The notes under the pieces are model-generated. The model was not told where the DNA came from. It ran no database searches and was given only the letters and a program-made list of their open reading frames with translations. 49,678 bases of DNA from Patescibacteria group bacterium UBA5272. Lineage in GTDB: Bacteria; Patescibacteriota; Minisyncoccia; Phycocordibacterales; UBA5272. This document shows, one piece after another, positions 1 through 45,780 of the stretch (positions are counted from its first letter, which is position 1; each line of letters opens with the position of its first letter). Made by a program: the position numbers and the translations under genes. The stretch spans positions 1-49,678 of the forward strand of contig DHTA01000001.1 of the NCBI GenBank assembly GCA_002408565.1, read 5' to 3'.

Positions 1-24
1 TTAATATATAAAATTTTATAAAAT

Positions 25-95
25 AAAAAACTCCCCATATTTCAACCGGGAGCAATGGCTCGACCATGACGTTGAATGTGTTGGGAAGTTTTAAT
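25..95 (-). terminator. Long imperfect hairpin followed by a U-tract. It may be the 3' end of an unassigned RNA or leader that runs out of the window.
   Basis: Plus-strand AAAACTCCCC (27-36) pairs with GGGAAGTTTT (83-92). The single mismatch is C.A on the plus strand but a G:U wobble on the minus strand. Inner helices are TTCAAC (41-46)/GTTGAA (71-76) and ATGG (55-58)/CCAT (64-67). On the minus strand a T-run follows (30-25). Confidence 0.35.
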
Positions 96-212
96 TCTTC
101 ATGTCCAGCGAGCTGGACTTTGTTTTCTAATCCAATTCGCTGGACACGAAACAATTGATTGTTTTTATGGAGGTATCATCCTCTAGTATTTGAGATGCAT
201 TTTTCAATGCGA

Positions 213-583
213 TGTCTTTTATATATGATTATTAATTTTATAAAAGACATATTTGTGGTTTGCCTAAAAGTTGTGATCTATAAAGGACAAACTGAAATAT
301 ATAAGTTGGGTGCTATTATTTATTATTAGTTTATTTTTAGCTATTATGCAACTTGTGTTGCTTGTAACGAACTGTTTGGTGAGAACCAGCTTTTAAGGAT
401 GTTTTTATTTAATTTCCCGTAAGCCGGGTTACGCTTTATCCTAAGCTTGTCACCCTGTCTATATTATAAAGGACACAGAAATAAACACAAGTCCTTTTGG
501 CTTAAAGACTGTGGATAACTTGTCCTTTATACTAAAAATACTAAATGTCCTTTATAAAAGACCTTTACATCGTGTCCTTTATA
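213..583. repeat. Array of an 11-mer motif, TGTCCTTTATA and its complement TATAAAGGACA, in a non-coding region
   Basis: Exact copies: TATAAAGGACA at 279-289 and 465-475; TGTCCTTTATA at 521-531, 546-556 and 573-583. A variant pair, TGTCTTTTATA 213-223 and TATAAAAGACA 239-249, are exact reverse complements of each other. A near-palindrome GTCCTTTATAAAAGAC lies at 547-562. Confidence 0.8.
510..521 (+). promoter_or_regulatory. Perfect DnaA-box consensus (TGTGGATAA, the complement of TTATCCACA) within the extended motif TGTGGATAACTT
   Basis: Read directly at 510-518. It sits between two copies of the 11-mer repeat (465-475 and 521-531). Confidence 0.5.
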
Positions 584-696
584 AAAAATTCTCGTCTCTT
601 AAGGGAAGAAAAAGTTTGTCTTTTAAGATATTTGCATTGTCTTTTTGTTTTAGTTAAATTTCAAATAAGTTTAAACAATCTCTTGGTGGAGACTTA

Positions 697-728
697 TAAA
701 AAAATACCGAGCTTTTATATCTCAGTAT
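697..728 (-). terminator. Intrinsic terminator downstream of tig
   Basis: Stem 704-711 / 721-728 (ATACCGAG / CTCAGTAT). The one mismatch becomes G:U only on the minus strand. The loop is 9 nt. The A7 run at 698-704 reads as a T-tract after the hairpin on the minus strand. The element lies about 30 nt past the tig stop at 756. Confidence 0.7.
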
Positions 729-755
729 TTCTATTTCTTCGGCTGTATTTTTATT

Positions 756-1922
756 TTATTTTTCTTCTCCATCCAACATTTTCATTACTTTTTCATTAAT
801 CAAAATTTGTTGAACATAACCGCGAACATTATTTTCATTGGCTTCTGGCATTTGAGTCATAATCTTTAAAGCTTCTGCGTCAATTTCTTCTTTAGAAGTC
901 TCAATTTTTTCTTTTTTAGCTATTTCGTTAATCAAAAGTTGTGACATAACCCTTTTGTAAGCAATATCTTTCCATTCATTTTTAAGATCCTCTTCGGTTT
1001 TCTTTAAATGCGTCAAATAATCTTCCCATTTGCTACCAAATCTCTCTACATCAGCCTTAGTTTGCAGTTTCATTCTTTCAAGTTCGTCTGAAATTAAAGC
1101 ATCAGGTAGGCTAGTCTTAGTTTCTCTAACCAATCTTTCTAAGATTGAAGTCCTCTTTTTTTCTTGAAGTTTCGATTTTTTTTCTAAAACCAAGTTCTCT
1201 TTGATTTTAGCCCTCAAATCCTCTAAGGTCTTAAATTGTTCTCCAAAACTTTGAGCAAATTCATCATTTATCTCTGGAAGCTCCTCTTTTTCAGCTTTTT
1301 CGTCTTTTTTGTCTTCTTTTCCTTTAGAATCATCGTGAGAATGCTCATGAATCGTTCCATCTTCATGCACATGCCCTCCAGTATTTCTAGCTTTTCTTAA
1401 ACTTTCAACTACTTCATCGACTTCTGAGTCAGAAACATTTAGAATATCTTCCTTAACCGCTTGATCGTTTTTCTTTTTCAATTCATCAAATTCTCCTTTT
1501 TCTATTTTATCATTCTCTTCTTTGGCTAGTTTTTTATAGTCTACTAAATCAATTTTTGGAAGTACAGCAAAAATAGCATTATATTCGAAGTCTGAGCCTT
1601 GTCCAATTTTAGCAATAGAAATTTTTGGCTCAGAAACTGGAATAATTTTATCTTCGTCTTTCTTGTTTTCATTTTCTTTAAGAATAGAAGAGTAAAAAGT
1701 CTCATTAATAACCAAATGGGCCATTTCTTCTAAAATAACCATTTCCCCATATTTTTCAGTGATTAAATTTTCTGGAGCATTGCCTTTTCTAAAACCGTCG
1801 ATTTCTACAAATTCTCGGACTTTTTTCAGACCAGCTTGTCTATACTTTTCAAACTCAGCGTTTTCAAGAGAAACGACCATTTTGACCTCTCCATTTTCTA
1901 GTTTTTCAAATTTTATTTTCAT
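756..1922 (-). CDS. tig: Trigger factor without a PPIase domain
   Basis: The N-terminal ribosome-binding signature GFRKGNAP matches GFRxGxxP. VSDSEVDEVVESLRKARNT aligns by eye with E. coli VTDADVDGMLDTLRKQQAT, and ELPEINDEFAQSFG aligns with ELPELTAEFIKRFG. The C-terminal arm domain is present. Confidence 0.85.
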   Translation of the reverse strand: MKIKFEKLENGEVKMVVSLENAEFEKYRQAGLKKVREFVEIDGFRKGNAPENLITEKYGEMVILEEMAHLVINETFYSSILKENENKKDEDKIIPVSEPKISIAKIGQGSDFEYNAIFAVLPKIDLVDYKKLAKEENDKIEKGEFDELKKKNDQAVKEDILNVSDSEVDEVVESLRKARNTGGHVHEDGTIHEHSHDDSKGKEDKKDEKAEKEELPEINDEFAQSFGEQFKTLEDLRAKIKENLVLEKKSKLQEKKRTSILERLVRETKTSLPDALISDELERMKLQTKADVERFGSKWEDYLTHLKKTEEDLKNEWKDIAYKRVMSQLLINEIAKKEKIETSKEEIDAEALKIMTQMPEANENNVRGYVQQILINEKVMKMLDGEEK

Positions 1923-1949
1923 ATAATTTTAGTTTAATTTATTTTTAAC

Positions 1950-3164
1950 CTACTCTTCAACAATTTCTTCAATTTCCTCGATTTCTTCTTGTTTTTCTTC
2001 ATTTACCAACCCTTCTTCGTCAGCCTCGACAATCAAATCTCCTTCTTCACCAGCAATATCAATTTTCCAGCCAGTTAATTTTGCTGCCAGACGGACATTT
2101 TGCCCTCCTCGGCCAATAGCGAGAGATTGTTCTTCTAAACTTACTAAGACTTTAGCTTTTTTTTCATCTTCATCAATTTCGATACTGTGAACTTTGGCAG
2201 GGGAAAGAGAAGAAGCAATATTTTCCCTAATATCATCACTCCATTTAATAATGTCTATTTTTTCACCGCTCAATTCATTACTAATAGCGTTTACTCTCAC
2301 ACCTCTTTGCCCAACACAAGCTCCAATAGGGTCTACTCTAGGATCATTGCTTTTTACAGCTATTTTGCTTCTGCTGCCCGGCTCTCTGGCTACTGCCACA
2401 ATTTCTACGGTTCCATCATCAATTTCAGAAGATTCTGCTTTAAAAAGTTCTATTAAAAATTTTGGATGACTTCTGGAAAGGCGTATAGAAAGACCCCTAG
2501 GACCTTCTTCTATAGAGTATAAATAAGCCTTAATCCTTTGTCCTGGGCGAAATTTATCATTTCGAATTTGTTCTTCAAATGGCAAAATGGCGGTAGTTCT
2601 GCCTAAATCCACGAAGATATTGCCTTTTTCCATTCTCTGAACAATTCCAGACACAATACTTCCTTCTTTAGTTTCAAATTCTCCTGCAATAGACTCATTT
2701 TCGGCTTCACGTATTTTTTGAACCACAACTTGCTTAGCTGTCTGAGCAGCGATTCGTCCAAAATCGCTTTTGTTTTCAAGGTTAAAAGAGATTTCGTCGC
2801 CAAGTTCAGCAGTCTTTTTAAGAAGTTTTGCACTAGAAAGCAAAATATGCTTTTCTTCATTATATTTTGGAAGCAACAAAACGCCCTCACCATCTTCTTC
2901 GTAAACTTCTTCTTTTAAATCTTCCTCTTCTTCGTTATTTATTCTAACCGTACTCTCATCGACTACAATTTTAATTTGTTCAAAAGCAGTTTCTCCTGTT
3001 TCAAAATTGATGTGACAACGAATAAGCTGCCCTTTTCTCCCATACTCTTTTTGATAAGCAGCTGCTAAAGATCTTTCCACAGCATCAATAATTTTCTCAC
3101 GAGAAATCTTTTTTTCTTCTTCTAAAGTATCTAGAGCTATATTTAAAGCTTTGACATCTAACAT
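1950..3164 (-). CDS. nusA: Transcription termination/antitermination factor NusA
   Basis: An S1 domain (GSIVSGIVQRMEKGNIFVDLGRTTAILP) and KH domains (DPIGACVGQRGVRVNAISNELSGEKIDIIKW; AIGRGGQNVRLAAKLTGWKIDI) are present. The track ORF extends to a TTG at 3191. I prefer the ATG at 3164 (MLDVKALNIALDTLEEEK...). Confidence 0.95.
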   Translation of the reverse strand: MLDVKALNIALDTLEEEKKISREKIIDAVERSLAAAYQKEYGRKGQLIRCHINFETGETAFEQIKIVVDESTVRINNEEEEDLKEEVYEEDGEGVLLLPKYNEEKHILLSSAKLLKKTAELGDEISFNLENKSDFGRIAAQTAKQVVVQKIREAENESIAGEFETKEGSIVSGIVQRMEKGNIFVDLGRTTAILPFEEQIRNDKFRPGQRIKAYLYSIEEGPRGLSIRLSRSHPKFLIELFKAESSEIDDGTVEIVAVAREPGSRSKIAVKSNDPRVDPIGACVGQRGVRVNAISNELSGEKIDIIKWSDDIRENIASSLSPAKVHSIEIDEDEKKAKVLVSLEEQSLAIGRGGQNVRLAAKLTGWKIDIAGEEGDLIVEADEEGLVNEEKQEEIEEIEEIVEE

Positions 3165-3215
3165 ATTTTTATAATTCTTTTTATAATTCAATAATAATTT
3201 CCAAAAATTTTAATT

Positions 3216-3237
3216 AAAAAATCGAGCGTTAGCTCGA
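3216..3237 (-). terminator. Small hairpin plus T6 in the nusA 5' leader (candidate attenuator)
   Basis: TCGAGC (3222-3227) / GCTCGA (3232-3237) with a 4-nt loop. The A6 at 3216-3221 reads as T6 after the hairpin on the minus strand. It lies between the predicted promoter and the nusA start. Confidence 0.4.
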
Positions 3238-3270
3238 CCTGCCTTTACTCACCCATTTAATAATAAAAAC

Positions 3271-3299
3271 ATTTTAACAAAAAACACTTCCAAAGTCAA
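3271..3299 (-). promoter_or_regulatory. Sigma70-like promoter reading towards nusA
   Basis: On the minus strand: TTGACT (3299-3294), a 17-nt spacer, then TAAAAT (3276-3271). Confidence 0.5.
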
Positions 3300-3338
3300 A
3301 AAAGGAAAGTAAAAATTCTTTTATGTTAAAATGTCTCT

Positions 3339-4346
3339 ATGGCAATAAAAAAACCTATCACCATTATTAATTGGAGAGGCTATGTTTCTAATTTAAAAGA
3401 AGCGAAAACTATCATTAAAGACTTATCCAAAGAATACTTCGACTTAATTAAAGAAAAAGAAAAAGAGTTGAAAAAAAAACCTAAAAAAAGAGACTTAGAC
3501 CTTCATCTTTCTGTACCCTCATCTTTTATTTATCCTTTGCAAGAATTTGTGAAAGATAAAAAAAATGAAAAATTCAAAAAAATAATTATTGGAGCTCAAA
3601 ACTTTGAAGAGATAGGGAAGACCAATAAAAACAACTGTGTAACCTTTTCTCAGATTCAAAGCGTTGGTACAAAGTTTGTAATATTAAACAACGACATAGA
3701 TTTTGAAAACAAAAACTTATCTGAACAATTATCACCAAATCTAAAAGAGCAAAAAAATCTCAATAAAAATGAAATAGATAATGCTTTTTTACAAAGATTA
3801 AACAGTATTAGCAAAAAAAATATTCAAAATAAAAAAGACGAATCTCTAGAGGGGGCGATTAATACAGAAAAATTATTAGAAGAAGAAAGAAAGGTTTTAA
3901 TCAAAGCCAAAGAAAAAGAATTTCAGATCTTGGAAGAAAAATTAAAATGCTCTTTGCAAAACGGCATGGAAACTGTCTTAGTTATAAAAAGTCATAATGA
4001 CGACTTAACTTTTTTAGCAAATTTTGTAAAAAGAATAGTCAAGAATCTGCATTATAATTTTTTTGATAAACTTTTTATTTGTTATGAAACCGGTAAAAAA
4101 GTTTTAAACATGGACAGGGTGTATGTAGACGACTGCCAAGAAAAAGTGATAGTTATCAGAAGAGCTATAGCTAACCTTTTTGGAATAGATGAAGCTAAAA
4201 GAGTAAGAATTCTTTATAGTGGGCCGATTAATCTTAATAACATTAACGCTATTTTAAAAGAAGGTGGTGTGGACGGGATTTTAATCAACAATGAAACTTC
4301 TTCCGCAAAAGATTTGGCCAAATTACTTGTTGAAGCGACGCTTTAG
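3339..4346 (+). CDS. tpiA: Triosephosphate isomerase-like TIM-barrel protein, highly divergent, with an insertion
   Basis: INWRGY matches NWK; IIIGAQNF matches GAQN; ICYETG matches YEP; RILYSGPINLNN...GGVDGILINNETS matches the C-terminal YGGSV...DGxLVGGASL region. Catalytic and phosphate-loop positions look substituted (see findings). Confidence 0.6.
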   Translation: MAIKKPITIINWRGYVSNLKEAKTIIKDLSKEYFDLIKEKEKELKKKPKKRDLDLHLSVPSSFIYPLQEFVKDKKNEKFKKIIIGAQNFEEIGKTNKNNCVTFSQIQSVGTKFVILNNDIDFENKNLSEQLSPNLKEQKNLNKNEIDNAFLQRLNSISKKNIQNKKDESLEGAINTEKLLEEERKVLIKAKEKEFQILEEKLKCSLQNGMETVLVIKSHNDDLTFLANFVKRIVKNLHYNFFDKLFICYETGKKVLNMDRVYVDDCQEKVIVIRRAIANLFGIDEAKRVRILYSGPINLNNINAILKEGGVDGILINNETSSAKDLAKLLVEATL

Positions 4347-19508: not shown

Positions 19509-20390
19509 ATGAAAAATGAAAAATTAGCCATCTTTTGGAATAATTTTCGCGAAAAACTTTCCAAGGTTGATGTAAAAATATACTTATATGCTTTAGGAGC
19601 TATAGCAGTTATTGTTTTGATAATTATCACCTCCAATAACTATTCTAAATATGGCTCTATACAGAAAGACGGAAAATATTATTTAGACATACAAAAAATA
19701 GCTGCTGATTATGGTATAGATCTTAACCCGATAACAACAAACGCAATCGATTATGCAAATAATGAAGATGCGAATGTTACCGAAGACCTATCTCGCTCTC
19801 TTTATTTAACCAATCTTTACCTTGAGCAAAACGGCATGACCGACTCGACAGCTCGTGGACAGATTTTAGCTGACATTGTTTTTGCTTATCAAGAACAAGT
19901 TATTGGTAACAAATATACTCTTAATAATTTAAATATTATTCGAGAAGAAAATAAAGAAAGTTTGCAAGATTATTACGAAGATATTTACAGCGCTTTTGAT
20001 AAATACGGGAAAGAGTTGGACAATATATCAACGAATCCTTTTGCTAAATATCAGAACACAGACTCTCTCGATGAAAACACTTTCGATCTTGCCTGGAAAG
20101 AGATGATTGATAATATACAAAAAAACATAAATGCAAATAACAATTTGATTAATAATTTAATTTCTATACCAGCTACAGAAAATGGAGCTACCTATCAACT
20201 AGAATTGATAAATATCATCTCAAAACAGACAGCTTACTATAAATCTCTTCAACAAATAAATACAGACCCAGTCAAATATCTTCTTCTGAGCGGAAAAGAT
20301 TTTATGGAAAACTTTCAAAATGAATTAACTTCTACTGTCAACTCTCTTTATATTTATTTTTCAAGTTTTGATGTGAAACTAAATAATTAA
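19509..20390 (+). CDS. Hypothetical N-terminally anchored protein, first gene of the T4SS-like module
   Basis: 293-aa ORF with one TM helix (IYLYALGAIAVIVLIIITS). It is tightly followed by the next same-strand genes. Confidence 0.65.
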   Translation: MKNEKLAIFWNNFREKLSKVDVKIYLYALGAIAVIVLIIITSNNYSKYGSIQKDGKYYLDIQKIAADYGIDLNPITTNAIDYANNEDANVTEDLSRSLYLTNLYLEQNGMTDSTARGQILADIVFAYQEQVIGNKYTLNNLNIIREENKESLQDYYEDIYSAFDKYGKELDNISTNPFAKYQNTDSLDENTFDLAWKEMIDNIQKNINANNNLINNLISIPATENGATYQLELINIISKQTAYYKSLQQINTDPVKYLLLSGKDFMENFQNELTSTVNSLYIYFSSFDVKLNN

Positions 20391-20411: not shown

Positions 20412-22814
20412 ATGAAAAATACATATCAAAAGCTAATGTCTACAATTTTATTACTTTCATTTTTAATTCCTTTTACTATACCTAAAAAGTCTTATGCTAT
20501 TTTTGGAGTACTTGATACTGGGGACGCTATTTTAGGTGCCATACTTGGAGTTGATGTTGCTAAAAAAATAATGGATGGTGTATATCAAGTAGAAGACACT
20601 GTGTCTAGAGCCTATAATTTATATCAAAATACTTTAGCCGCTAAACAGCTTGTTCAAAATATTAAAAATTTTGACGCTTCAACTTTTGCCCAAAACGCTT
20701 CCAGCGACGCTCTTTTTGAGGTTGGAGAAGCTGTTGTAGAAAACCTTGGTATCACTAAAGATGAGTCCACCAATGTTTACACGAAAGGCCAACAAGTTGT
20801 GACAAATTTTGGTAATTATTTAGACAAGATTTCTGTTAACGAAATAAAGAAGGGCCTATCCAATCTTCAGATAACAATTAATACCACTCCTTACAACGCT
20901 GACATATCTAAAAGTGTTACAGATTTTGTAAGAGAAACTTCTGATACAGCTTTAGGAAAGGTGGTAAATTTCTCTCTACCCTATATAGCAAAAGATGAGA
21001 TTTGTAATAGCCCACAATTAAAAGATATTATAAAAAATGGTGAACCGGAAACTTTTGTGAGAGCAAAAAAAGCTGTAGGCAATATTGATATAGACAAATT
21101 ATGTAACACTAGTCTACAAAAACCACAAAAAGAGGCTTCGGAAGCTCAAGCTTCTTTTATTGGTCTAGCTAAAGCAGGTTATGGTGGACCAAAAACAAGT
21201 GCAGCTCTTTCAGATTCTACCAACACTCCGTCTGGAGTCGTTGGTATGGCTGTCTCAAATATTTTATCTCAAAAAGACAAAGTTGTGAAAGAGGTCTCAA
21301 AGCAAACTGAAGCAACGGGAATGTTTTTAGGAGATCAAAAATGTATTGATAAAGACGGAAAAGAAGTAAAATTTGACCCTACTGACCCTACACAATATTG
21401 TGATCAACAATTTTCTACAGCACAAGGGAGTGGATCTGTTTTGGGAGAAAAGGTGGCTGCAGCAGCAGCAGCACCATACCAAAGCATTTTGGCCAGAACA
21501 GAAGCGATTCATGACAAATTAAAAAATGGAGATTTTTCTGCAGCTGCTGACGCCATGAAACTAGTTAGCTCAATACTTCAAATGGGTCAAAAAGATGTTT
21601 ATTCTGTGGTGAATGACCCCTATGACAATCCTTACAAAGGTTTAGCAGACTCTTTAAGTTCTTTACAAAGCACACAAGATACTAGAAACTTACTTACAAA
21701 AAACACCGAACAAGAATCTCGAGAGTTTCATTACGGTTCAGACAAATACACGACCGACGATTTACAAAATGCTTTAGAGGTGTATGCAAAAATAAGAACC
21801 TTTAACACCCAAAAATTGAATACTTATACCTACAGTTATCTTTTATTAAAAACTTCCGTAGACAAAGCTAAAGCTGCTGTCGATGAAGCAAAAAAGGAAG
21901 CGAAGGAAAAAGCAAACAAATGGGGTGGATGGTACAGTGTTTTTCATCCCGTCAAAACTAATACAGCCGCAAAAGCTTCCAAAAACAAAGCTGAGGCTGC
22001 AAAAAAATTAAATTTAGCTTTAATTAGTATGACCACTGAAACTAGAAATTTAATTAAAGAGATGGCTAAAAATAATTATAGAGAACAACAAATTAGAAAA
22101 CTTTTATTAGAATTAAGAGAAACTAAAGACATAGACACAGAGAACAATCAAGAAGCTTTAGCTCAAGCTTTAGACGGAACTTACACAGAAAAAGATTATG
22201 CCTTCTTTGTAAGCGATTGGAATTATATACCAGAATATTCGGAAATACATTCAGACCCTTATACAGCAACAACAAAAGACGCTTCTTATTATATTCCTAC
22301 AAGAGAGGAAATAGAAGGACCTTATACCGAAAACTTGTTGCGTTATTTAAGAGTTAGAGCTTATTTAATGCTAAAAGATTCCTTAGAAGCAGGAGTAAAT
22401 CCTACAATTCCAACAAAAGACAAGACTATGTTTGATGCTTATGATGTCAAAAATTTTGATTATTTAACCCCTAATCTTCCAAGACCATCAAAAACCACAA
22501 CAGCCTTAATTGATACCGACGACTCAATTTCTTATTCTGAATTGTCTTATTGTAATCAAGTAAAAATTGGAATCTGTAACAAGGCAGAACTACAAACCTT
22601 GGCTGATTCTATAAATAGTTTTGATTACAGTTATAATGATCCAGGATTGGATTTATTGAAAGAAAAATGTCCTCAAGATTTAGAAACTAATCTTAGAAAC
22701 TTATGCTCTAACGCTGTTAATAGTCAAGACCTTGAACTAAAAGAAATTTGTAAAGATGAAACCTCTATTAAAGAAACTCTTCAAATTGCACAAGAAGAAT
22801 GTGCAAAATATTAA
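20412..22814 (+). CDS. Large secreted hypothetical protein, possibly a surface or tip component of the T4SS-like module
   Basis: Signal peptide (MSTILLLSFLIPFTIPKKSYA). The helical N-terminus starts IFGVLDTGDAILG. A Cys-containing C-terminal region is present. A strong terminator follows. Confidence 0.75.
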   Translation: MKNTYQKLMSTILLLSFLIPFTIPKKSYAIFGVLDTGDAILGAILGVDVAKKIMDGVYQVEDTVSRAYNLYQNTLAAKQLVQNIKNFDASTFAQNASSDALFEVGEAVVENLGITKDESTNVYTKGQQVVTNFGNYLDKISVNEIKKGLSNLQITINTTPYNADISKSVTDFVRETSDTALGKVVNFSLPYIAKDEICNSPQLKDIIKNGEPETFVRAKKAVGNIDIDKLCNTSLQKPQKEASEAQASFIGLAKAGYGGPKTSAALSDSTNTPSGVVGMAVSNILSQKDKVVKEVSKQTEATGMFLGDQKCIDKDGKEVKFDPTDPTQYCDQQFSTAQGSGSVLGEKVAAAAAAPYQSILARTEAIHDKLKNGDFSAAADAMKLVSSILQMGQKDVYSVVNDPYDNPYKGLADSLSSLQSTQDTRNLLTKNTEQESREFHYGSDKYTTDDLQNALEVYAKIRTFNTQKLNTYTYSYLLLKTSVDKAKAAVDEAKKEAKEKANKWGGWYSVFHPVKTNTAAKASKNKAEAAKKLNLALISMTTETRNLIKEMAKNNYREQQIRKLLLELRETKDIDTENNQEALAQALDGTYTEKDYAFFVSDWNYIPEYSEIHSDPYTATTKDASYYIPTREEIEGPYTENLLRYLRVRAYLMLKDSLEAGVNPTIPTKDKTMFDAYDVKNFDYLTPNLPRPSKTTTALIDTDDSISYSELSYCNQVKIGICNKAELQTLADSINSFDYSYNDPGLDLLKEKCPQDLETNLRNLCSNAVNSQDLELKEICKDETSIKETLQIAQEECAKY

Positions 22815-40664: not shown

Positions 40665-41900
40665 ATGGCTATAAAAAAGACAAAAGTTATTGTGGATGAA
40701 GAGAAAATTAACGATATCTTAACTCGGGGTGTAGAGGATATTATTGATAAGGAAGAATTGAAAAAAGACTTAATGAGTGGAGTGGAGTTAAGAATAAAGC
40801 TTGGTATAGACCCAACTGGTCCAAAACTTCACTTGGGAAGAGCTATTCCTTTAAGAAAATTAAGAGAGTTTCAGAGACTAGGTCATCAGATTGTTTTGAT
40901 TGTGGGCGATTTTACTGCTCAAATTGGAGATGCTTCAGATAAAAACGAAAAAAGACCAATGCTTACTAGACAACAAATCGATGAAAATCTTAAAGACTAT
41001 AAAAGTCAAATTGGTAAGATTTTAGATCTTTCTAAAACTGAGTTTGTTTATAATAATGATTGGCTTTCCAAACTTACTTTTTCTGAGCTTATAAAATTAT
41101 CCGAATGCTTTTCTGTGCAACAAATGCTAGCTAGAAGAAATTTTAAAGAAAGGTTTGAAGAAGGGAAAGAGATTTCTTTGCGTGAATTTTTATACCCAAT
41201 GATGCAAGGATATGATTCTGTTGAAATAAAAGCTGATGTGGAAATTGGAGGTTTTGATCAACTTTTTAATTTGAAGGCAGGGAGAATCATTCAAGATTAT
41301 TACGGTATGAAAAAACAACACCTTCTTACTTGCGAAATGCTTGAAGGTACCAATGGAGCAAAAATGAGTACCTCACAGGGAAATATTATTTCCATTGTTG
41401 ATGAACCAGATGATATGTTTGGAAAAATAATGGCCATGAAAGATGGTTTGATAGTTAAATATATGAAGCTCTGCACTGATGCAAAAGAAGAAGAATTGGA
41501 AGAAGCTGAGAATTTTTTAGCTGATAAAAATAATAATCCAAGAGATTTGAAGCTAAAATTAGCTAAAGCTATAGTAGGTATATATCACAACGAAAAAGTA
41601 GCCACCAAAGCAGAAAATAATTTTATAGAGACTTTTCAAAAAGGTGGTATACCAGACAATATTTCTCAAATTTTTGTGAAGGAAGAAGAGAAAGATTTAG
41701 ACATGGGAGATCTTATAGTAAAAAATGGTTTTGTAAAATCCAAATCTGAATGGAAAAGATTAATCGAAACTAATTCTGTAAAAGAGATTCTTGAAGAAGG
41801 GGAGAACATAAAAGAAAAAACCTTAACCGACTATAAGGTTAAAGTTTTTCCAGCGAGTCTAAAAATTGGAAAAAAGAAATTTGTACAAATTATTTTATAA
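40665..41900 (+). CDS. tyrS: Tyrosyl-tRNA synthetase
   Basis: HIGH region is PTGPKLHLGRAIPL. The KMSKS-type motif is KMSTSQGN. GGFDQLFNL is present. I prefer the start at 40665 (MAIKKTK). Confidence 0.93.
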   Translation: MAIKKTKVIVDEEKINDILTRGVEDIIDKEELKKDLMSGVELRIKLGIDPTGPKLHLGRAIPLRKLREFQRLGHQIVLIVGDFTAQIGDASDKNEKRPMLTRQQIDENLKDYKSQIGKILDLSKTEFVYNNDWLSKLTFSELIKLSECFSVQQMLARRNFKERFEEGKEISLREFLYPMMQGYDSVEIKADVEIGGFDQLFNLKAGRIIQDYYGMKKQHLLTCEMLEGTNGAKMSTSQGNIISIVDEPDDMFGKIMAMKDGLIVKYMKLCTDAKEEELEEAENFLADKNNNPRDLKLKLAKAIVGIYHNEKVATKAENNFIETFQKGGIPDNISQIFVKEEEKDLDMGDLIVKNGFVKSKSEWKRLIETNSVKEILEEGENIKEKTLTDYKVKVFPASLKIGKKKFVQIIL

Positions 41901-42170
41901 TTTCCAGAAAGCGTTATCTTCTTCGTCTTCATAAAGACCGTCTCCATCTTCATTTACGTCCACTCCTTCTTCTTCTGGATCTAATTCTTTTTCATCGTCT
42001 TCTAAATCCTCTTCATCTTCAGTATCTTCTTCATCTATGGCATCCTCTAAAGAATCTGGATTAAAACCCTTTTCATCTTGTTCATTTTCATCAATTTCTT
42101 CCATCTCATCATCATCTCTTTTGTCAAAAGAATCATTTTTTGAAATATGTTTTTTTGGCATAATTGGCAT
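41895..42170 (-). CDS. Small, extremely acidic hypothetical protein
   Basis: 91-aa ORF downstream of ruvC. About half of the residues are D or E by eye (DEEDTEDEEDLEDDEKELDPEEEG). The antisense ORF 42037..42249 is its Ser-rich mirror image. Confidence 0.5.
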   Translation of the reverse strand: MPIMPKKHISKNDSFDKRDDDEMEEIDENEQDEKGFNPDSLEDAIDEEDTEDEEDLEDDEKELDPEEEGVDVNEDGDGLYEDEEDNAFWKL

Positions 42171-42253
42171 AATTTTTATTTATTTTTTTATGATGTGTAT
42201 TATAAGAAATTATGATTTTTTTTCAAGAGATTTTTTAAGAAAGCTGTGAATAA

Positions 42254-42736
42254 CTATTTCACACTTATCCCGTGTGTATAGGCTACAGCTATAGCGTCAT
42301 ATTCATCATCTAATTTTTTAGCTTTATTTACTTTGATTTTTAGAATTTTCTGCAACATAAAGTAAACTTGGTTTTTATCAGCTTTTCCATAACCAGTCAT
42401 GGCAATTTTTATTTGTAAGGGAGTATATTCAAAAATTTTTAAGTTTAAAACTTGAGCTAAAAAAATAATGGCCCCTCTCGCCTCAGAGACTCCCATAACA
42501 GTTTTTTGGTTGTTAGTAAAAAAAAGTTTTTCTATAGCCAATTCGCTTGGTTTGTATTTTCCTATAATTTTTTTCAATTCTTTTCCAAAAATAAAAATTC
42601 TCTCACTAATTTCTTTTTTTCTGTCAGATTCTAAACAGTCTGAATAAATTACCTCATATTCAGTGTTTGACTTTTTTTCTAAAATAGCAAGACCTAATCT
42701 GTCATAACCCGGATCAATTCCTAGGATTCTTTTCAT
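42254..42736 (-). CDS. ruvC: Holliday junction resolvase RuvC
   Basis: [16 protein letters not shown] (catalytic Asp) and the C-terminal [13 protein letters not shown]. It overlaps ruvB by 4 nt. Confidence 0.9.
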
Positions 42737-43773
42737 AAATTATCTTCTAGCTTCTTAATATGTTCTTTGGCTTTTTCCGTAGCCACTCTTCCTCTAGTTG
42801 TCCTTTCAATAAACCCAATCTGTAAAAGATAAGGTTCTACTACGTCTTCAAGAGTACTCTCTTCTTCACCTATGGAAGCGGAAAGAGTATTTAATCCAAC
42901 AGGCTTGTCTGGAAAAATATTTACTAAAGTGTTTAAAAGCATTCTTTCGGCCACACCGAGACCCATATTATCTATTTCTAATAAAGCAAGAGTGTTGTTT
43001 ACTACCTCAATATCTATAATAGCTTTATTGACCTGAGCATAATCTCGACACCTCTTTAAAAGATAATTGGCCGTTCTTGGGGTAAAACGAGATCTTTTAG
43101 CAATCTCTAAAGCTGCTTCGTCAGTGATTTGAATATTTAAAATTTTGGCAGAATTTTTTACAATTTGAGTAATTTCGTTTTCATTATAATATTGCAATCT
43201 GTGCACTCCTCCAGAAAATCTAGAACGAAGAGGGGAAGAGAGTAAGGAAACTCGGGTAGTTGCCCCAATTAAAGTAAACTTTGGCAGATCTAGTTGAATA
43301 GTTCTAGCACTTGGCCCTTTTCCTATAATAATATCCAATTTACCAGACTCCATAGCTGGATAAAGCACTTCTTCTATTAATTTATTTAGTCTGTGAATTT
43401 CGTCTATAAAAAGTACATCTCCATCTGAAAGATTAGTTAAAATTGCTGCCAAATCTCCAACTTTCATAATGGCTGGACCAGAAGTGATTCGTATATTTGT
43501 ATTTAATTCTTTAGCTACTAAATTAGCTAAAGTTGTTTTTCCAAGTCCAGGAGGGCCGTAAAATAAAATATGTTCCGGAGCCGACCGTCTTTCTTTGGCG
43601 GCTCGAATTAAGATTTCTAAATTGTCTTTAATAGTTTTTTGTCCAATATAATCTTTCCAAAGTGAAGGACGTAAAGCTTGATCGAGATAGTCTTTTTCCT
43701 CTTCAACAAGCTCTTCCAACTCTTCTTTTAAGTCATTTTCAATATTTTTTTCGTTAAATTCTTTTTCTTCCAT
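42733..43773 (-). CDS. ruvB: Holliday junction branch migration ATPase RuvB
   Basis: [12 protein letters not shown], the Walker [12 protein letters not shown], the Walker [10 protein letters not shown], and FTLIGATTR. Confidence 0.95.
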
Positions 43774-43807
43774 AGTTGTAGTTATTTTACCATATAAAAG
43801 ACGCCTC

Positions 43808-43837
43808 TTGACAAAAGCCTTGATTATATGATATCAT
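43808..43837 (+). promoter_or_regulatory. Near-consensus sigma70 promoter with an extended -10, pointing into the structured element
   Basis: TTGACA (43808-43813), an 18-nt spacer, then TGaTATCAT (43829-43837). The 11-mer TATGATATCAT is identical to the one in the rpsO promoter (10771-10781). Confidence 0.5.
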
Positions 43838-43877
43838 TGTAAATGGATGATAAGGAATTTGTCATTCTTTGTTTTTT

Positions 43878-44027
43878 AAAAACCGCATAGATCTCTAAAC
43901 AATTGAGACTTCGTCTCATACTTTTATAGGTGAAGGACGGCTTTGGTTAGATTTATTCTAAACTGAACCTATCCTTACACGAAAGTTTTCTTCACCAAGA
44001 GGTTGTTTAGAGATCTGTGTGGTTTTT
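43878..44027 (+). ncRNA. Candidate structured RNA, family unknown, with a 6S-like overall architecture
   Basis: A 25-bp closing helix joins 43878-43902 and 44003-44027. Its two non-Watson-Crick pairs are G:U only on the plus strand. Internal hairpin TGAGAC-TTC-GTCTCA lies at 43904-43918. A second helix pairs GGTGAAGGA 43929-43937 with 43988-43996 and encloses a further hairpin. The element ends in T5. Confidence 0.45.
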
Positions 44028-45780
44028 AATTTTCGTAAAGATCGACGACGGTTAGAAGTTCCTCGTAACTAGTTTCCCCTCGTAACACTTTTATTATACC
44101 ATCTTCTCGCATAGTAAGAATTCCTTGTTTGTTAGCCAAATCTTTAATTTTTCTTTCGTTGATTATTTTTTCTGTAACGATTAAATCAGAAATTTCTCTA
44201 TCCATTTCTATAGCTTCAAAAACTCCTGTTCTACCTTTATATCCTTCAAAACATTTTTCACAACCAGCAGAATTAGCTTTGTATATTTTGTAAGTATTTG
44301 CTGGGCGAATATCACCCATAGAATCTTCTTTATGGGATGAAATCATGCCGCCTAAAATATTAGTAATTTGTTTAGTTTGTTTTTCTGAAGCTTCTATTTC
44401 TTCTTTACAATAAGGGCAAAGCTTTCTAACGAGTCTTTGAGCTAAAGATAAAGAAAGAGCCGAAGCTAAAGTCCCAGGATTGGCACCCAGTTCTAATAAA
44501 CGAGGAATTGTTCCTGCGGCGTTGTTGGTGTGTAAGGTTGAAAAGACTAAGTGCCCGGTGAGAGCAGCGTTAATCGCTACTTTGGCCGTATCTTCATCAC
44601 GAATTTCACCTACCATTATAATGTCAGGATCTTGACGCATAGCTGCACGAAGTCCAGAAAGAAAAGAATAACCTTTATCCTCTTCAACTTGAGTCTGAAC
44701 AATGCCAGCCAAATGATATTCTACAGGGTCTTCAATAGTAATAATTTTTACGCCTGGATTATAAAGTTTGTTGATAAAAGCATACAGAGTGGTAGTTTTA
44801 CCAGAACCGGTTGGCCCAGTGTTCAAGATAATTCCGCTTGGTTTTTCAATGTGTCTTTCCACCACTTCAAAAAGTTGAGGAGAAAATCCTAAAACTTCCA
44901 GGTCGGCCATGATATTTCTTGGATCTAAAATTCTCATCACAAAACTTTCTCCATAATTTCCAGGAACTACTGAGAGACGAACTTCAATTTCTACATTTTG
45001 ATCGATGATAGAAAATCTTCCGTCTTGAGCATTCTTGGTGATACTTAATTTTATTCCAGATAAAAGTTTGAGGCGAGAATTAATTAATTTCATTGTTGGA
45101 TAATCTAAGTAACAAATATCTATAAGTTCGCCGTCAATTCTATATCTTACACGCACTTTTTCTTTTTCTGGTTCAATGTGAATGTCGGAAGATTTAAAAT
45201 GTAAAGCTCCCGAAATAATTAATTCTATAATTCTAGAAATTCTAAAATTTTTAGACTGATTAGCAATAGCGATAATAGAGCTTCGTAAATCATCTAGGGT
45301 TTTTATGTTTTCAAAAAGATCTTTTAAGGTTTTAGAGTTTATATCTAAAATACCTGAAGTTACAGGTTTTGCGACAGAAATATCAGAATATCTTGTCCAG
45401 GCATGCTCTAAAGAAGCGTTGGAAGCCATGAATTTTATAAGTTCTAAACCATGTCTTTCTAAATTTTCTAAAATTTCTCTTACACCTTCTTTTTCTGGCG
45501 AAAACATTGCCACATAAAGCTTGTTCCCAACCTGTTTGAAGGCGGCTATTTTAGATTTTTTAGCATCTTCCTCTTTGATTTGTTTTAAAGCGTCTGGTTC
45601 GGGAGCAATACCTTTTAAGTTGATATAAGGCAAACCAAACTTGTCAGATTCTCTTTTTATAAAATTTTCTTCTCCTTCTTTTCTGGCGACCCCTAAAATA
45701 TCGTCAACACTTTCTACTGTCTCAGTATCTTGAAATTGTAAATCGTATTTTATTTCTTTTTTTTCTTCTTGTTCATCCAT
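44026..45780 (-). CDS. pilB: Type II secretion / type IV pilus assembly ATPase (GspE/PilB family)
   Basis: Walker A is GPTGSGKTTTL. The Asp box region is ITIEDPVEY, Walker B is MRQDPDIIMVGEIRD and the His box is GHLVFSTLHTN. The tetracysteine motif is CPYC...CEKC. Confidence 0.9.
   Translation of the reverse strand: MDEQEEKKEIKYDLQFQDTETVESVDDILGVARKEGEENFIKRESDKFGLPYINLKGIAPEPDALKQIKEEDAKKSKIAAFKQVGNKLYVAMFSPEKEGVREILENLERHGLELIKFMASNASLEHAWTRYSDISVAKPVTSGILDINSKTLKDLFENIKTLDDLRSSIIAIANQSKNFRISRIIELIISGALHFKSSDIHIEPEKEKVRVRYRIDGELIDICYLDYPTMKLINSRLKLLSGIKLSITKNAQDGRFSIIDQNVEIEVRLSVVPGNYGESFVMRILDPRNIMADLEVLGFSPQLFEVVERHIEKPSGIILNTGPTGSGKTTTLYAFINKLYNPGVKIITIEDPVEYHLAGIVQTQVEEDKGYSFLSGLRAAMRQDPDIIMVGEIRDEDTAKVAINAALTGHLVFSTLHTNNAAGTIPRLLELGANPGTLASALSLSLAQRLVRKLCPYCKEEIEASEKQTKQITNILGGMISSHKEDSMGDIRPANTYKIYKANSAGCEKCFEGYKGRTGVFEAIEMDREISDLIVTEKIINERKIKDLANKQGILTMREDGIIKVLRGETSYEELLTVVDLYEN

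What the first reader, a model, noticed from the sequence alone, without database searches (positions are those of the whole stretch)
1..755. About 750 nt without a credible ORF, carrying an 11-mer array, a compensated variant pair, a perfect DnaA box and strand-biased hairpins
This genome otherwise has intergenic gaps of tens of nucleotides, so the stretch stands out. TGTCCTTTATA or its complement occurs five times exactly (279, 465, 521, 546, 573). A sixth pair (213-223 / 239-249) carries the same C-to-T change in both arms, so the two arms stay perfectly complementary. That points to selection for pairing or for a symmetric operator. Copies 465-475 and 521-531 form an inverted repeat around a perfect TTATCCACA box (510-518). 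The last three copies are direct repeats 25 and 27 nt apart, which is iteron-like. Positions 378-454 form four nested 4-5-bp helices: GGTGA/TCACC, AGCTT/AAGCT, AGGAT/ATCCT and CCCG/CGGG. Positions 100-150 contain mutually exclusive pairings: GTCCAGCGA (RC of 137-145) or GTCCAGC (RC of 114-120) can each pair with the 3' TCGCTGGAC (RC of 105-113). A U-tailed long hairpin (25-95) is better on the minus strand. Candidate interpretations are an auxiliary DnaA-titration or replication-control locus, a plasmid- or phage-derived iteron origin, a multi-operator regulatory region, or one or more unannotated RNAs transcribed leftwards out of the window.
Basis: seen in the sequence. Interest (0 to 1): 0.6.

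Follow-up and report, generated by a model that had tools for sequence, protein, structure and literature searches.

The report
Hidden structured RNA gene near origin
The seemingly empty 750 bases hold an unannotated gene for a folded RNA of about 440 bases with unknown function, together with an unusual control region that carries a binding site for the replication initiator DnaA, in a tiny uncultivated (CPR) bacterium.

Summary
All 7 copies (up to 1 mismatch) of TGTCCTTTATA in the 49.7-kb window lie in 213-583, the TTATCCACA box is perfect, and the hairpins exist.

The region is not a DnaA-box cluster or an iteron origin. It is a stand-alone gene for a structured RNA of about 440 nt on the minus strand (about 456 down to about 20). 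The gene has its own promoter and a hairpin-plus-U terminator. Long DNA matches occur in 12 of 14 same-genus genomes. Compensatory base changes and a strong G-U over A-C bias point to the minus strand. No Rfam family matches.

The 11-mers and the DnaA box belong to a promoter type. The box always sits 41 nt upstream of the -10 hexamer, both here and at four surface-protein promoters in this genome. The same composite occurs, mostly as a single copy, in 33 of 201 genomes of the order. In 7 of 12 loci inspected it precedes another unannotated RNA.

The locus is close to the origin: 3.8 kb from the strand switch in a complete relative, and 5-33 kb in two others. It has only one DnaA box, so I rate an oriC role as unlikely (about 0.1).

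The RNA's function is unknown. I infer that DnaA and an unidentified factor binding TGTCYTTTATA control its transcription.

The parts
20..92 (-). 3' terminal long irregular hairpin (outer stem 31-37 with 82-88; conserved inner GAGC..GCUC hairpin), followed by a U-tract (plus-strand A-run 25-30). Acts as the intrinsic terminator and marks the 3' end of the RNA.
   Evidence: outer stem conserved with G-U and compensatory changes. U-run invariant in 12 of 12 aligned genomes. Minus strand favoured (H5: -12.2 against -5.6 kcal/mol).
97..153 (-). Helix H4, a 22-bp hairpin (GUCCAGCGA...UCGCUGGAC base with a variable top).
   Evidence: 13 genomes, 95.8% of cells paired against 87.5% in shuffles. 8 of 22 pairs changed on both sides, reached by 0 of 500 shuffles. 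38 G-U against 2 A-C cells.
169..184 (-). Small conserved hairpin H3 (GAGG-loop-CCUC) inside a conserved single-stranded block at about 154-200.
   Evidence: Kept with changed letters in G013.
213..289 (.). Variable middle of the RNA gene. It holds the compensated inverted pair TGTCTTTTATA / TATAAAAGACA (213-223, 239-249) and one more 11-mer copy (279-289). This is either an RNA hairpin or an operator inside the gene; unresolved.
   Evidence: The pair is kept in relatives with variable spacing (columns 530-589). No strand bias: 5 G-U against 4 A-C.
297..320 (-). Block B, a nearly invariant unpaired segment (RNA reads AAUAAUAGCACCCAACUUAUAUAU).
   Evidence: invariant columns. Complementarity tests to other RNAs gave nothing conserved.
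361..377 (-). Conserved single-stranded motif AAACAGUUCGUUACAAG just 3' of helix H1. A similar GUUCUUUAC word follows the 5' hairpin in the RNAs of other genera.
378..455 (-). Helix H1, the 5' domain.
   Evidence: 91.2% paired against 88.0% in shuffles. 4 of 21 pairs changed on both sides, reached by 1 of 500 shuffles. Further compensated in G013.
455..490 (-). Core promoter of the RNA. -10 TATAAT at 463-468, overlapped by the 11-mer copy at 465-475. -35 TTGTGT at 485-490 (TTGCAA in 8 of 12 aligned genomes). Inferred start at about 455-457 (CAGGG).
   Evidence: Same -10/start context as the tmRNA promoter. Not flagged by the simple promoter scan in this genome.
510..531 (-). Perfect DnaA box (510-518), 41 nt upstream of the -10 hexamer, abutted by an 11-mer copy (521-531). 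Invariant composite ATAAAGGAC(A)AGTTATCCACA.
   Evidence: invariant in 12 of 12; 41-42 nt spacing in 12 of 12 relatives and 41 nt in four C1 promoters; census of the composite.
546..583 (+). Two further direct 11-mer copies (546-556, 573-583) in the zone between the two divergent promoters.
   Evidence: Copy number 1-5 and zone length 28-110 nt vary among 12 genomes.
613..668 (+). Conserved rightward promoter block (TTGCAT 632-637, 17 nt containing TGTCTTTTT, TAAATT 655-660). In 7 of 12 relatives it faces an rsmE-like gene. Here tig has taken that place.
   Evidence: columns 60-100; same block upstream of the rsmE-like gene in genus g5.
696..735 (-). Hairpin plus T-run downstream of tig. Probably the tig terminator, not part of the RNA unit.
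   Evidence: sequence only; inference.

Best explanation
Positions from about 456 down to about 20 on the minus strand are a stand-alone gene for a structured non-coding RNA. It is about 440 nt here and 391-478 nt in relatives. No curated RNA family holds it.

Transcription starts at a sigma-70-type promoter (-35 at 485-490, -10 at 463-468). It ends at a long hairpin followed by a U-run (92 down to 20).

The RNA folds into four parts:
- a 5' four-helix hairpin (378-455);
- a conserved unpaired GUUC(G/A)UUACAA word and an invariant block;
- a variable middle;
- a 22-bp hairpin (97-153) and the terminal hairpin.

The stretch 460-690 is the control zone shared with a divergent rightward promoter. 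A perfect DnaA box lies exactly 41 nt upstream of the -10 hexamer. TGTCYTTTATA words overlap the -10 region, abut the box and are repeated upstream.

Shown:
- the conservation;
- the strand-specific covariation;
- the fixed promoter geometry;
- reuse of the same geometry at surface-protein promoters in this genome, and at one mostly single-copy promoter in many genera of the order.

Inferred:
- DnaA binds the box and an unidentified DNA-binding protein binds the 11-mers. Together they tie synthesis of this RNA, and of some envelope proteins, to replication or growth state.
- The RNA works as a stable, probably protein-bound, housekeeping or regulatory RNA.
For: Conservation. Region 1-692 is 66-85% identical over about 400-690 nt in 12 of 14 same-genus genomes. 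This holds even though the flanking gene on the right differs: tig in 5 of 12 loci, an rsmE-like gene in 7 of 12.

Strand. The consensus fold of the whole unit is -69.0 kcal/mol on the minus strand against -53.2 on the plus strand. For the 3' domain the values are -47.9 against -29.5. The predicted helices hold 67 G-U against 11 A-C cells.

Covariation.
- H4: 8 of 22 pairs changed on both sides, reached by 0 of 500 shuffles; sliding the partners drops pairing from 95.8% to 27-42%.
- H1: 4 of 21 pairs changed on both sides, reached by 1 of 500 shuffles.
- G013 adds compensated changes in H1, H3, H4 and H5.

Single-sequence fold. z = -7.5 on the minus strand against -4.5 on the plus strand.

Promoter and terminator. 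TTG of the -35, the -10 hexamer and the U-run are invariant or nearly so. Box-to--10 spacing is 41-42 nt in 12 of 12 relatives and 41 nt in four other G000 promoters. 7 of the 16 perfect boxes in the genome have TATAAT 39-41 nt downstream.

One copy per genome. Models R1 and R2 each hit 12 of 14 other genus members, at the same locus and in the same order.

Sister genus g5 (G024). It has, at the same rsmE-like | RNA ... clpP ... HU position, the same composite promoter and an ORF-free structured unit of about 330 nt ending in a hairpin plus U-run.

No known family. Nothing at Rfam gathering score in the window. Nothing credible at E up to 10 in 1-900 or in relatives.

No coding signal. Only short unconserved ORFs. 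Indels that are not multiples of three lie inside conserved blocks.
Against: - There are no expression data of any kind. The transcript ends are inferred from sequence.
- The simple promoter scan does not flag the promoter in this genome (its -35 matches only 3 of 6), and promoter-like hits in 1-900 are no more frequent than in shuffles.
- The 5' domain shows no strand preference (-17.5 against -17.6 kcal/mol), and its covariation is modest.
- The middle 200-300 is poorly conserved and carries promoter-type 11-mers, so the unit could be two transcripts.
- The covariance models find nothing convincing outside the genus: 1 weak hit in 81 other genomes of the family for each model, and 1 weak hit in 150 order genomes. 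Model R2 does not detect the RNAs of other families. Homology with them therefore rests on promoter, position and a short motif only.
- The sequences are close kin, so the shuffle controls overstate significance.
- The function is unknown, and DnaA binding is inferred from the motif alone.
Confidence: 0.72

Rival explanations
1. The region, or its right part 460-690, is the chromosomal replication origin or an auxiliary DnaA-control site. DnaA would bind the box, the 11-mers would be accessory initiator or regulator sites, and the AT-rich DNA would unwind.
For: - In the complete relative G002 (614,345 bp) the cumulative GC skew bottoms out at 535-552 kb and the gene-strand switch is at 534.6-535.2 kb. 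The region lies at 530.8-531.4 kb.
- Its gap is the largest intergenic gap near the switch and holds the only perfect DnaA box there.
- In 7 of 12 relatives it sits exactly at a divergent gene pair, HU leftward and the rsmE-like gene rightward.
- G000 and G002 differ by an inversion whose break abuts the nusA end of this block.
- dnaA is not at the switch; it is 35-49 kb away.
- A paper on another CPR group reports short repeats and DnaA-box-like sequences near the skew-defined origin (PMC4736985; passages read).
Against: - Only one DnaA box with up to 1 mismatch lies in 1-800, and none clusters within 6 kb on either side.
- The box has a fixed 41-nt distance to a -10 hexamer here and at four other promoters. 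That is promoter logic.
- The zone between the promoters shrinks to 28-48 nt with a single 11-mer in G010 and G011, so it is dispensable.
- In two genomes of genus g5 the homologous locus is 5.5 and 12.5 kb from the strand switch, and 18 and 33 kb from the local skew minimum. In four other families it is 25-31 kb from dnaA. A constant distance of zero from the origin is not seen.
- Strand-specific G-U covariation is not expected of an origin.
Confidence: 0.1
2. The 440 nt are not one RNA. They would be two or more units: a 5' RNA of about 100-160 nt (H1 plus motif), and a separate 3' RNA started by a promoter built from the 11-mers in 213-289. Alternatively there is a sense/antisense pair, with a rightward transcript starting near 312.
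For: - The middle is variable and carries three 11-mer copies of the kind that overlap -10 regions elsewhere.
- On the plus strand, block B reads ATATATAAGTTGGGTGCT. This resembles the transcribed leader start of three C1 promoter modules.
- The 5' domain has no strand preference.
Against: - There is no terminator-like hairpin plus U-run after the 5' domain.
- No conserved -35/-10 pair is visible in the middle across relatives.
- In G002 the module leaders no longer share the block-B word.
- R1 and R2 hits are always adjacent, in the same order and on the same strand.
Confidence: 0.12
3. The unit is a relic of, or is derived from, an rRNA-operon promoter and leader. It would have been left behind when the rRNA genes were scattered, and would have little function of its own.
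For: - The rRNA genes are unlinked in G002: 16S at 599.5 kb, 23S-5S at 40.7-44.5 kb.
- The 16S promoters of G000 and G002 lack the composite.
- The composite promoter is mostly single-copy per genome.
- The GUUCUUUAC-type word after a 5' hairpin recalls the boxA element of rRNA leaders. That resemblance is recalled and was not tested.
Against: - Structure is under selection: compensatory changes in H4, H1 and H5.
- No rRNA lies within 1.5 kb of the composite in any of the 12 loci of other families.
- The 11-nt complementarity to the G002 16S leader is absent in G000.
Confidence: 0.05
4. It is a long cis-acting leader or attenuator, riboswitch-like, controlling the downstream HU (and clpP) genes through the terminal hairpin.
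For: - HU lies on the same strand about 0.3-0.4 kb beyond the terminator in G008, G005 and G002, and here on contig C1.
- A sub-threshold attenuator-like Rfam hit occurs in one relative: Phe_leader, 33.6 bits against a gathering score of 55.
- Alternative pairings occur at 100-150 in this genome.
Against: - In 7 of 12 relatives an ORF of about 97-212 aa lies between the terminator and HU. It is on the opposite strand in the six genomes where both the RNA strand and HU could be placed.
- In G024 a 413-aa gene on the opposite strand and two other genes intervene.
- In other families the unit is followed by a convergent cca gene.
- The alternative pairing is not conserved.
Confidence: 0.03

Closest known systems
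Large stand-alone structured bacterial ncRNAs of unknown or only recently emerging function (OLE, ROOL, GOLLD, raiA; names recalled)
   Same: - Several hundred nucleotides long.
- Multi-helix fold supported by covariation.
- Own promoter and terminator.
- Narrow taxonomic range.
- No coding capacity.
   Different: - No sequence or structure match to any of the 4227 Rfam families searched.
- Found in a CPR lineage.
- Driven by a promoter with a fixed DnaA box.
- Evolves so fast that genus-level models fail in sister genera.
DnaA-controlled promoters, meaning DnaA acting as a transcription factor (for example at dnaA and nrdAB in E. coli; recalled)
   Same: A perfect DnaA box at a fixed position upstream of the core promoter. 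The spacing is 41 nt to the -10 hexamer here and 30-35 nt in other genera.
   Different: - The box is combined with a second, unknown word (TGTCYTTTATA).
- It drives an ncRNA and surface-protein genes.
- Binding by DnaA is not shown.
Bacterial oriC and DnaA-titration loci (datA, DARS; recalled)
   Same: - AT-rich non-coding DNA with a perfect DnaA box.
- Close to the GC-skew minimum.
   Different: - One box, not a cluster.
- No dnaA or dnaN next to it.
- The distance to the skew minimum varies between genomes.
- The sequence carries an RNA-type covariation signal.
6S RNA and other housekeeping RNAs (SRP RNA, RNase P RNA, tmRNA)
   Same: - Single-copy gene.
- Strong promoter.
- Stable fold.
- Conserved position.
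   Different: - RNase P RNA and tmRNA are found elsewhere in this genome.
- The 6S model gives nothing here, and the fold is several hairpins and not one rod.
- SRP RNA is excluded because no Ffh or FtsY domain is found in G000 or G002.

Membership tests
Bacterial oriC (DnaA-dependent chromosomal origin) | Cluster of several DnaA boxes within a few hundred bp | tested here: not met
   One box with up to 1 mismatch in 1-800, and one more with 2 mismatches. The densest 800-nt windows in the genome hold 3-4 boxes and lie elsewhere.
Bacterial oriC (DnaA-dependent chromosomal origin) | Lies at the GC-skew minimum or leading-strand switch | tested here: inconclusive
   G002: 3.8 kb from the strand switch and at the edge of a 17-kb flat minimum. 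G078 and G070: homologous locus 5.5 and 12.5 kb from the switch, and 18 and 33 kb from the local skew minimum. Resolution is roughly 10 kb either way.
Bacterial oriC (DnaA-dependent chromosomal origin) | AT-rich unwinding element next to the boxes; autonomous replication | not testable with these tools
   AT content in 50-nt windows is 54-82%, not distinct from a genome of about 69% AT.
Iteron-type plasmid or phage origin | Regularly phased iterons next to a rep or initiator gene, on a mobile element | tested here: not met
   Neighbours are tig, nusA, HU and clpP. Copy number 1-5 and spacing vary among 12 relatives. No match in plasmid or phage records.
Any Rfam family (release 15) | Covariance-model score at or above the gathering threshold | tested here: not met
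   0 matches in the window. The best sub-threshold hits in 1-900 are unrelated miRNA or sRNA models at 15-27 bits. The same holds in 11 relatives.
Stand-alone structured ncRNA gene | Conserved secondary structure with compensatory changes on one strand | tested here: met
Stand-alone structured ncRNA gene | Own promoter and terminator, independent of the neighbouring genes | tested here: met
   Conserved -35, -10 and U-run. The neighbours differ among relatives. By sequence only; the simple scan does not flag the promoter in this genome.
Stand-alone structured ncRNA gene | Transcript detected | not testable with these tools
   No RNA data are available.
SRP RNA | Domain IV motif, and an Ffh partner in the genome | tested here: not met
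   RF00169 and RF01854 give no match. PF02978 and PF00448 are found in 0 of 2 genomes, G000 and G002.
DnaA-regulated promoter | DnaA box at a conserved position relative to the core promoter | tested here: met
   41-42 nt from the -10 hexamer in 12 of 12 relatives and 41 nt at 5 promoters of G000. Whether DnaA binds it is not testable here.

The most novel reading that the evidence does not exclude
This RNA is the local, enlarged form of an order-wide RNA family in Paceibacteria-type CPR bacteria. The family would be single-copy, close to the origin and fast-evolving. Its promoter is built on a DnaA box plus sites for an undescribed global regulator (TGTCYTTTATA). The RNA would be part of a circuit, not yet described, that links replication initiation (DnaA status) to RNA-based control and to cell-envelope gene expression in organisms with very few regulators.
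Probability: 0.25. Interest if true: 0.8.

Novelty: new variant of a known kind. Interest (0 to 1): 0.6.

Why it matters
CPR/Patescibacteria genomes are tiny and tightly packed, so a conserved 0.7-1 kb stretch without a protein gene is costly and probably important. This one yields three things:
1. A new large structured RNA that no database holds.
2. A promoter architecture reused across an order, in which the replication initiator's binding site sits at a fixed distance from the -10 hexamer next to a second, unknown operator word.
3. A practical warning that origin predictors relying on 'largest gap with a DnaA box near the skew minimum' would probably miscall this RNA gene as oriC.

If the DnaA link is real, it offers a testable route into how ultra-small bacteria couple replication, RNA regulation and surface-protein synthesis.

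Tried and rejected
1. SRP RNA. No SRP model matches. No Ffh M domain or SRP-type GTPase domain is found in G000 or G002.

2. RNase P piece. The H1 tip recalled a conserved RNase P strand. But the genome's own RNase P RNA at C1:11054-11342 is complete, with both strands of that helix in a different sequence.

3. Pairing of block B with the 16S leader. An 11-nt perfect complement exists in G002 but not in G000. This is chance.

4. Pairing of block B with the leaders of the C1 promoter modules. It is seen in 3 of 4 modules in G000 but the word is not kept in G002. Left as a weak lead.

5. Homology with the RNAs behind the same promoter in other families.
- Model R2 with filters off gives only E of about 1-9.
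- MAFFT plus RNAalifold of 7 such RNAs aligns little beyond the terminator.
- Homology is therefore unproven, although G024 (sister genus, same synteny) bridges promoter, 5' hairpin and motif.

6. Plasmid or phage origin. No match.

7. The three 11-mers at C1:12892-12934. They lie inside the cca reading frame and fall in a protein segment that is also present in relatives' cca. I count them as coding-driven, not regulatory (inference).

8. The promoter/terminator pattern scan. It gave no support for the RNA promoter. It gave only a plus-strand terminator-like hairpin at 103-118 that is specific to this genome.

9. Slips. One search was a coordinate slip, redone. One search was a script error, replaced. 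One search had too many words, redone.
Full report
WHERE THE REGION LIES

The window is contig C5 (positions 1-49678) of a 517-kb, six-contig genome with about 31% G+C, judged 95% complete. Record titles of close relatives label them Candidatus Paceibacterota, and some label them Saccharibacteria. It is therefore a CPR/Patescibacteria bacterium.

The finding sits at the very start of the contig. To its right lie tig (756-1922, minus) and nusA (1950-3191, minus). To its left the sequence continues on contig C1. Read on its plus strand, C1 starts with the spacer seen in relatives and then carries HU (C1:392-637) and clpP (C1:1131-1658).

TGTCCTTTATA or its complement is at 279-289, 465-475, 521, 546 and 573. 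The variant pair is at 213-223 and 239-249. The reverse complement of TTATCCACA is at 510-518.

All 7 of 7 window matches with up to one mismatch lie in 213-583. Shuffles of the whole window give a mean of 2.15, and 0 of 100 reach 7.

Genome-wide there are 14 exact copies: 5 here, 5 on C1 and 4 on C6. The word is therefore clustered but not unique to this place.

No ORF longer than 56 aa lies wholly inside the region. No tRNA or tmRNA gene and no Rfam family is found.

THE REGION IS CONSERVED AS NON-CODING DNA

A DNA search of 40 relatives finds matches of about 400-690 nt at 66-85% identity in 12 of 14 genomes of the same genus. Only short word-like matches appear elsewhere.

The left neighbour is always HU, sometimes after an extra ORF of about 97-212 aa. 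The right neighbour is tig in 5 of 12 loci and an rsmE-like gene pointing away in 7 of 12.

The 12-genome alignment shows blocks of invariant columns separated by indels that are not multiples of three. This argues against coding.

IT IS AN RNA GENE ON THE MINUS STRAND

On the minus strand the alignment shows, in order:
- ATAAAGGAC(A)AGTTATCCACA;
- about 14 variable nt;
- TTGCAA (TTGTGT here);
- 16-17 nt ending in TGTCNTT;
- TATAAT;
- about 6 nt;
- CAGGGUG.

The tmRNA gene of this genome has the same -10/start context.

Conserved helices follow:
- A small hairpin H3 (169-184).
- H4 (97-153).
- A long terminal hairpin with an invariant U-run (20-92).

The fold is strand-specific:
- The alignment fold is -69.0 kcal/mol on the minus strand against -53.2 on the plus strand for the whole unit.
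- For the 3' domain it is -47.9 against -29.5.
- The 5' domain alone is neutral, at -17.5 against -17.6.
- The predicted helices hold 67 G-U but only 11 A-C cells.

Covariation by helix:
- H4, in 13 genomes, has 95.8% of cells paired (shuffles 87.5%; slid partners 27-42%). 8 of 22 pairs changed on both sides, which 0 of 500 shuffles reach.
- H1 is weaker: 91.2% paired against 88.0%, with 4 of 21 pairs changed on both sides, reached by 1 of 500 shuffles.
- The most divergent genus member, G013, keeps H1, H3, H4 and H5 through paired changes.

The single sequence folds with z = -7.5 on the minus strand and -4.5 on the plus strand.

By alignment the unit is 391-478 nt long in the 12 genomes.

Two covariance models, one for H3-H4 and one for H1, each hit 12 of the 14 other genus members. 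The hits are once per genome, adjacent and in the same order. Only one weak hit each appeared among 81 other genomes of the family, and one among 150 genomes of the order.

These genomes are close kin, so the statistics overstate independence. No expression data exist.

WHAT THE 11-MERS AND THE DnaA BOX ARE

In this genome the same arrangement recurs on C1 at four promoters: TTATCCACA, 2 nt, TTGTCCTTTA, about 8 nt, TGTCTTTTATA, 3 nt, TGTCGTTTATAAT. These promoters stand before genes for a 1629-aa BNR/sortilin-repeat protein, two proteins with peptidoglycan-binding domains and a small unknown protein.

The distance from the box to the -10 hexamer:
- exactly 41 nt at those four promoters and at the RNA promoter;
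- 41-42 nt in 12 of 12 genus relatives;
- 30-35 nt, roughly one helical turn less, in 7 of 8 loci of other genera. The eighth has no hexamer by my pattern.

Of the 16 perfect boxes in the genome, 7 have TATAAT 39-41 nt downstream. One of these stands before another surface-protein gene.

The promoters of RNase P RNA, tmRNA, EF-Tu and 16S rRNA lack both elements. The words therefore mark a subset of promoters and are not a general promoter signal.

The upstream direct repeats vary among relatives: 1-5 copies, all in one orientation, in a zone of 28-110 nt. This fits accessory operator sites and does not fit iterons.

I infer a DNA-binding regulator for TGTCYTTTATA and DnaA (or another protein) for the box. 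Neither was tested.

THE SAME PROMOTER OCCURS ACROSS THE ORDER

The composite GACA-N-TTATCCACA occurs in 33 of 201 genomes of the order, mostly once per genome. The reversed control pattern gives 0 of 201. In the family it occurs in 38 of 96 genomes, with 2 control hits.

In 7 of the 12 loci I inspected, it is the full composite promoter. It is followed by an ORF-free stretch of about 190-285 nt ending in a hairpin plus U-run, between an exonuclease-III-like gene and a convergent cca gene. No Rfam family matches there.

These RNAs share three features with the present one: the CAG start context, a 5' hairpin, and a GUUCUUUAC-type word. But my genus model does not detect them and they align poorly.

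A bridge comes from G024 in sister genus g5. At the same rsmE-like | RNA ... clpP ... HU position it has the same two divergent promoters and a structured unit of about 330 nt with a 5' hairpin, the motif and a long terminal hairpin.

I rate common descent of all these RNAs as likely but unproven.

REPLICATION ORIGIN: CLOSE BY, BUT PROBABLY NOT THIS

Evidence for proximity to the origin:
- In the complete relative G002 the cumulative GC skew falls until 535 kb, is flat to 552 kb and then rises. The maximum is at 179 kb.
- The gene-strand switch is at 534.6-535.2 kb.
- The region is at 530.8-531.4 kb, with tig, nusA and two small genes in between. dnaA is at 481.5 kb.
- The region's gap is the largest gap near the switch and holds the only perfect box there.
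- G000 and G002 differ by an inversion whose break lies next to nusA.

Evidence against an origin here:
- There is a single box with up to 1 mismatch in 1-800 and no cluster within 6 kb.
- The box has a promoter-fixed position.
- The zone between the promoters is nearly deleted in G010 and G011.
- In G078 and G070 the homologous locus is 5.5 and 12.5 kb from the strand switch, and 18 and 33 kb from the local skew minimum.

In four other families the locus is 25-31 kb from dnaA, always divergent from it. This covers 4 of 4 genomes where both lie on one contig, out of 7 searched.

The locus is therefore origin-proximal, which suits a highly expressed gene. I give oriC or DnaA titration about 0.1.

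IDEAS TESTED AND DROPPED

- SRP RNA.
- A split RNase P RNA.
- Pairing with the 16S leader.
- An HU leader or attenuator.
- Plasmid or phage origin.

LITERATURE

Four full-text searches turned up no paper listing that describes this RNA or this promoter type in CPR bacteria (listings). One paper on Peribacteria notes short repeats and DnaA-box-like sequences near the skew-defined origin (PMC4736985; passages read).

Earlier notes of this scan on other Patescibacteria genomes report DnaA-box promoters, TAAAGGACA sites and unannotated RNAs, including a module flanking cca. They agree with what I found independently. They are unverified AI notes and not evidence.

VERDICT

The finding is real. It is best read as a new structured RNA gene plus its DnaA-box/11-mer control zone, not as an origin. 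Function is unknown.

- Confidence in the RNA-gene reading: 0.72.
- Interest: 0.6.

Noticed in passing
whole genome G000, complete relative G002, and 61 genomes of the family: The signal-recognition-particle pathway seems undetectable.
- Small and large SRP RNA models: 0 hits in the 6 genomes searched with the small model and the 5 searched with the large model, G000 included.
- Ffh M domain PF02978: 0 of 61 family genomes at 90% completeness or more.
- SRP-type GTPase domain PF00448 (Ffh and FtsY): 0 of 2 genomes, G000 and G002.
- Controls ring in 11-14 of 14 known genomes (13-14 for RF00169 and the two Pfam domains, 11 for RF01854).
This is either true loss or extreme divergence.
   Followed up: partly
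G000 C1:8248-8396, 20030-20198, 21770-21878, 22555-22690 (loci L002, L003): Four near-identical promoter modules (DnaA box, three 11-mer-type words, TATAAT). In three of them a conserved leader hairpin plus U-run follows (GGGUGC...GCAUC-UUUUU type). They stand upstream of surface or peptidoglycan-binding protein genes. Similar modules occur at G002 538.6, 542.4 and 546.8 kb. The leader hairpin looks like an attenuator or a 5' stabiliser.
   Followed up: partly
G000 C6:88670-89127 (locus L004): A 458-nt gap between ftsK and a 299-aa ORF of no known family is packed with a dozen or so AAAG(G)ACA-type words, all in one orientation.
   Followed up: no
loci L107, L108, L110, L112, L113, L115, L116 (other families of the order): An unannotated RNA-like unit of about 190-285 nt lies behind the same composite promoter, between an exonuclease-III-like gene and a convergent cca gene. 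Its 3' end has two copies of CUGAGCGG-like words that can each pair with one CCGCUCAG word, giving an alternative-pairing layout. No Rfam match.
   Followed up: partly
G002 (complete relative): 599,452-600,974 and 40,700-44,450: The rRNA genes are unlinked. 16S lies about 54 kb from 23S-tRNA-5S. G000 likewise has 16S at about C6:25.5-27.4 kb and 23S at about C6:96-100 kb.
   Followed up: no
window 3303-3483 against G002 518.7 and 534.6 kb: Window 5-3303 is collinear with G002 530.8-534.6 kb, while window 3483-45680 matches G002 518.7 down to 468.7 kb inverted. This is an inversion hinged beside nusA, next to the strand switch. It moves dnaA from one replichore to the other.
   Followed up: partly
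window 756-1922 (-): Trigger factor is short (388 aa). It matches only the N- and C-terminal Pfam domains (residues 1-146 and 232-380). No PPIase (FKBP-type) domain hit was reported for the middle 85 residues.
   Followed up: no
G000 C1:12892-12934: Three 11-mer copies lie inside the cca reading frame. They coincide with a lysine/tyrosine-rich protein segment that is also seen in relatives' cca. They are probably a by-product of coding and not regulatory sites.
   Followed up: partly
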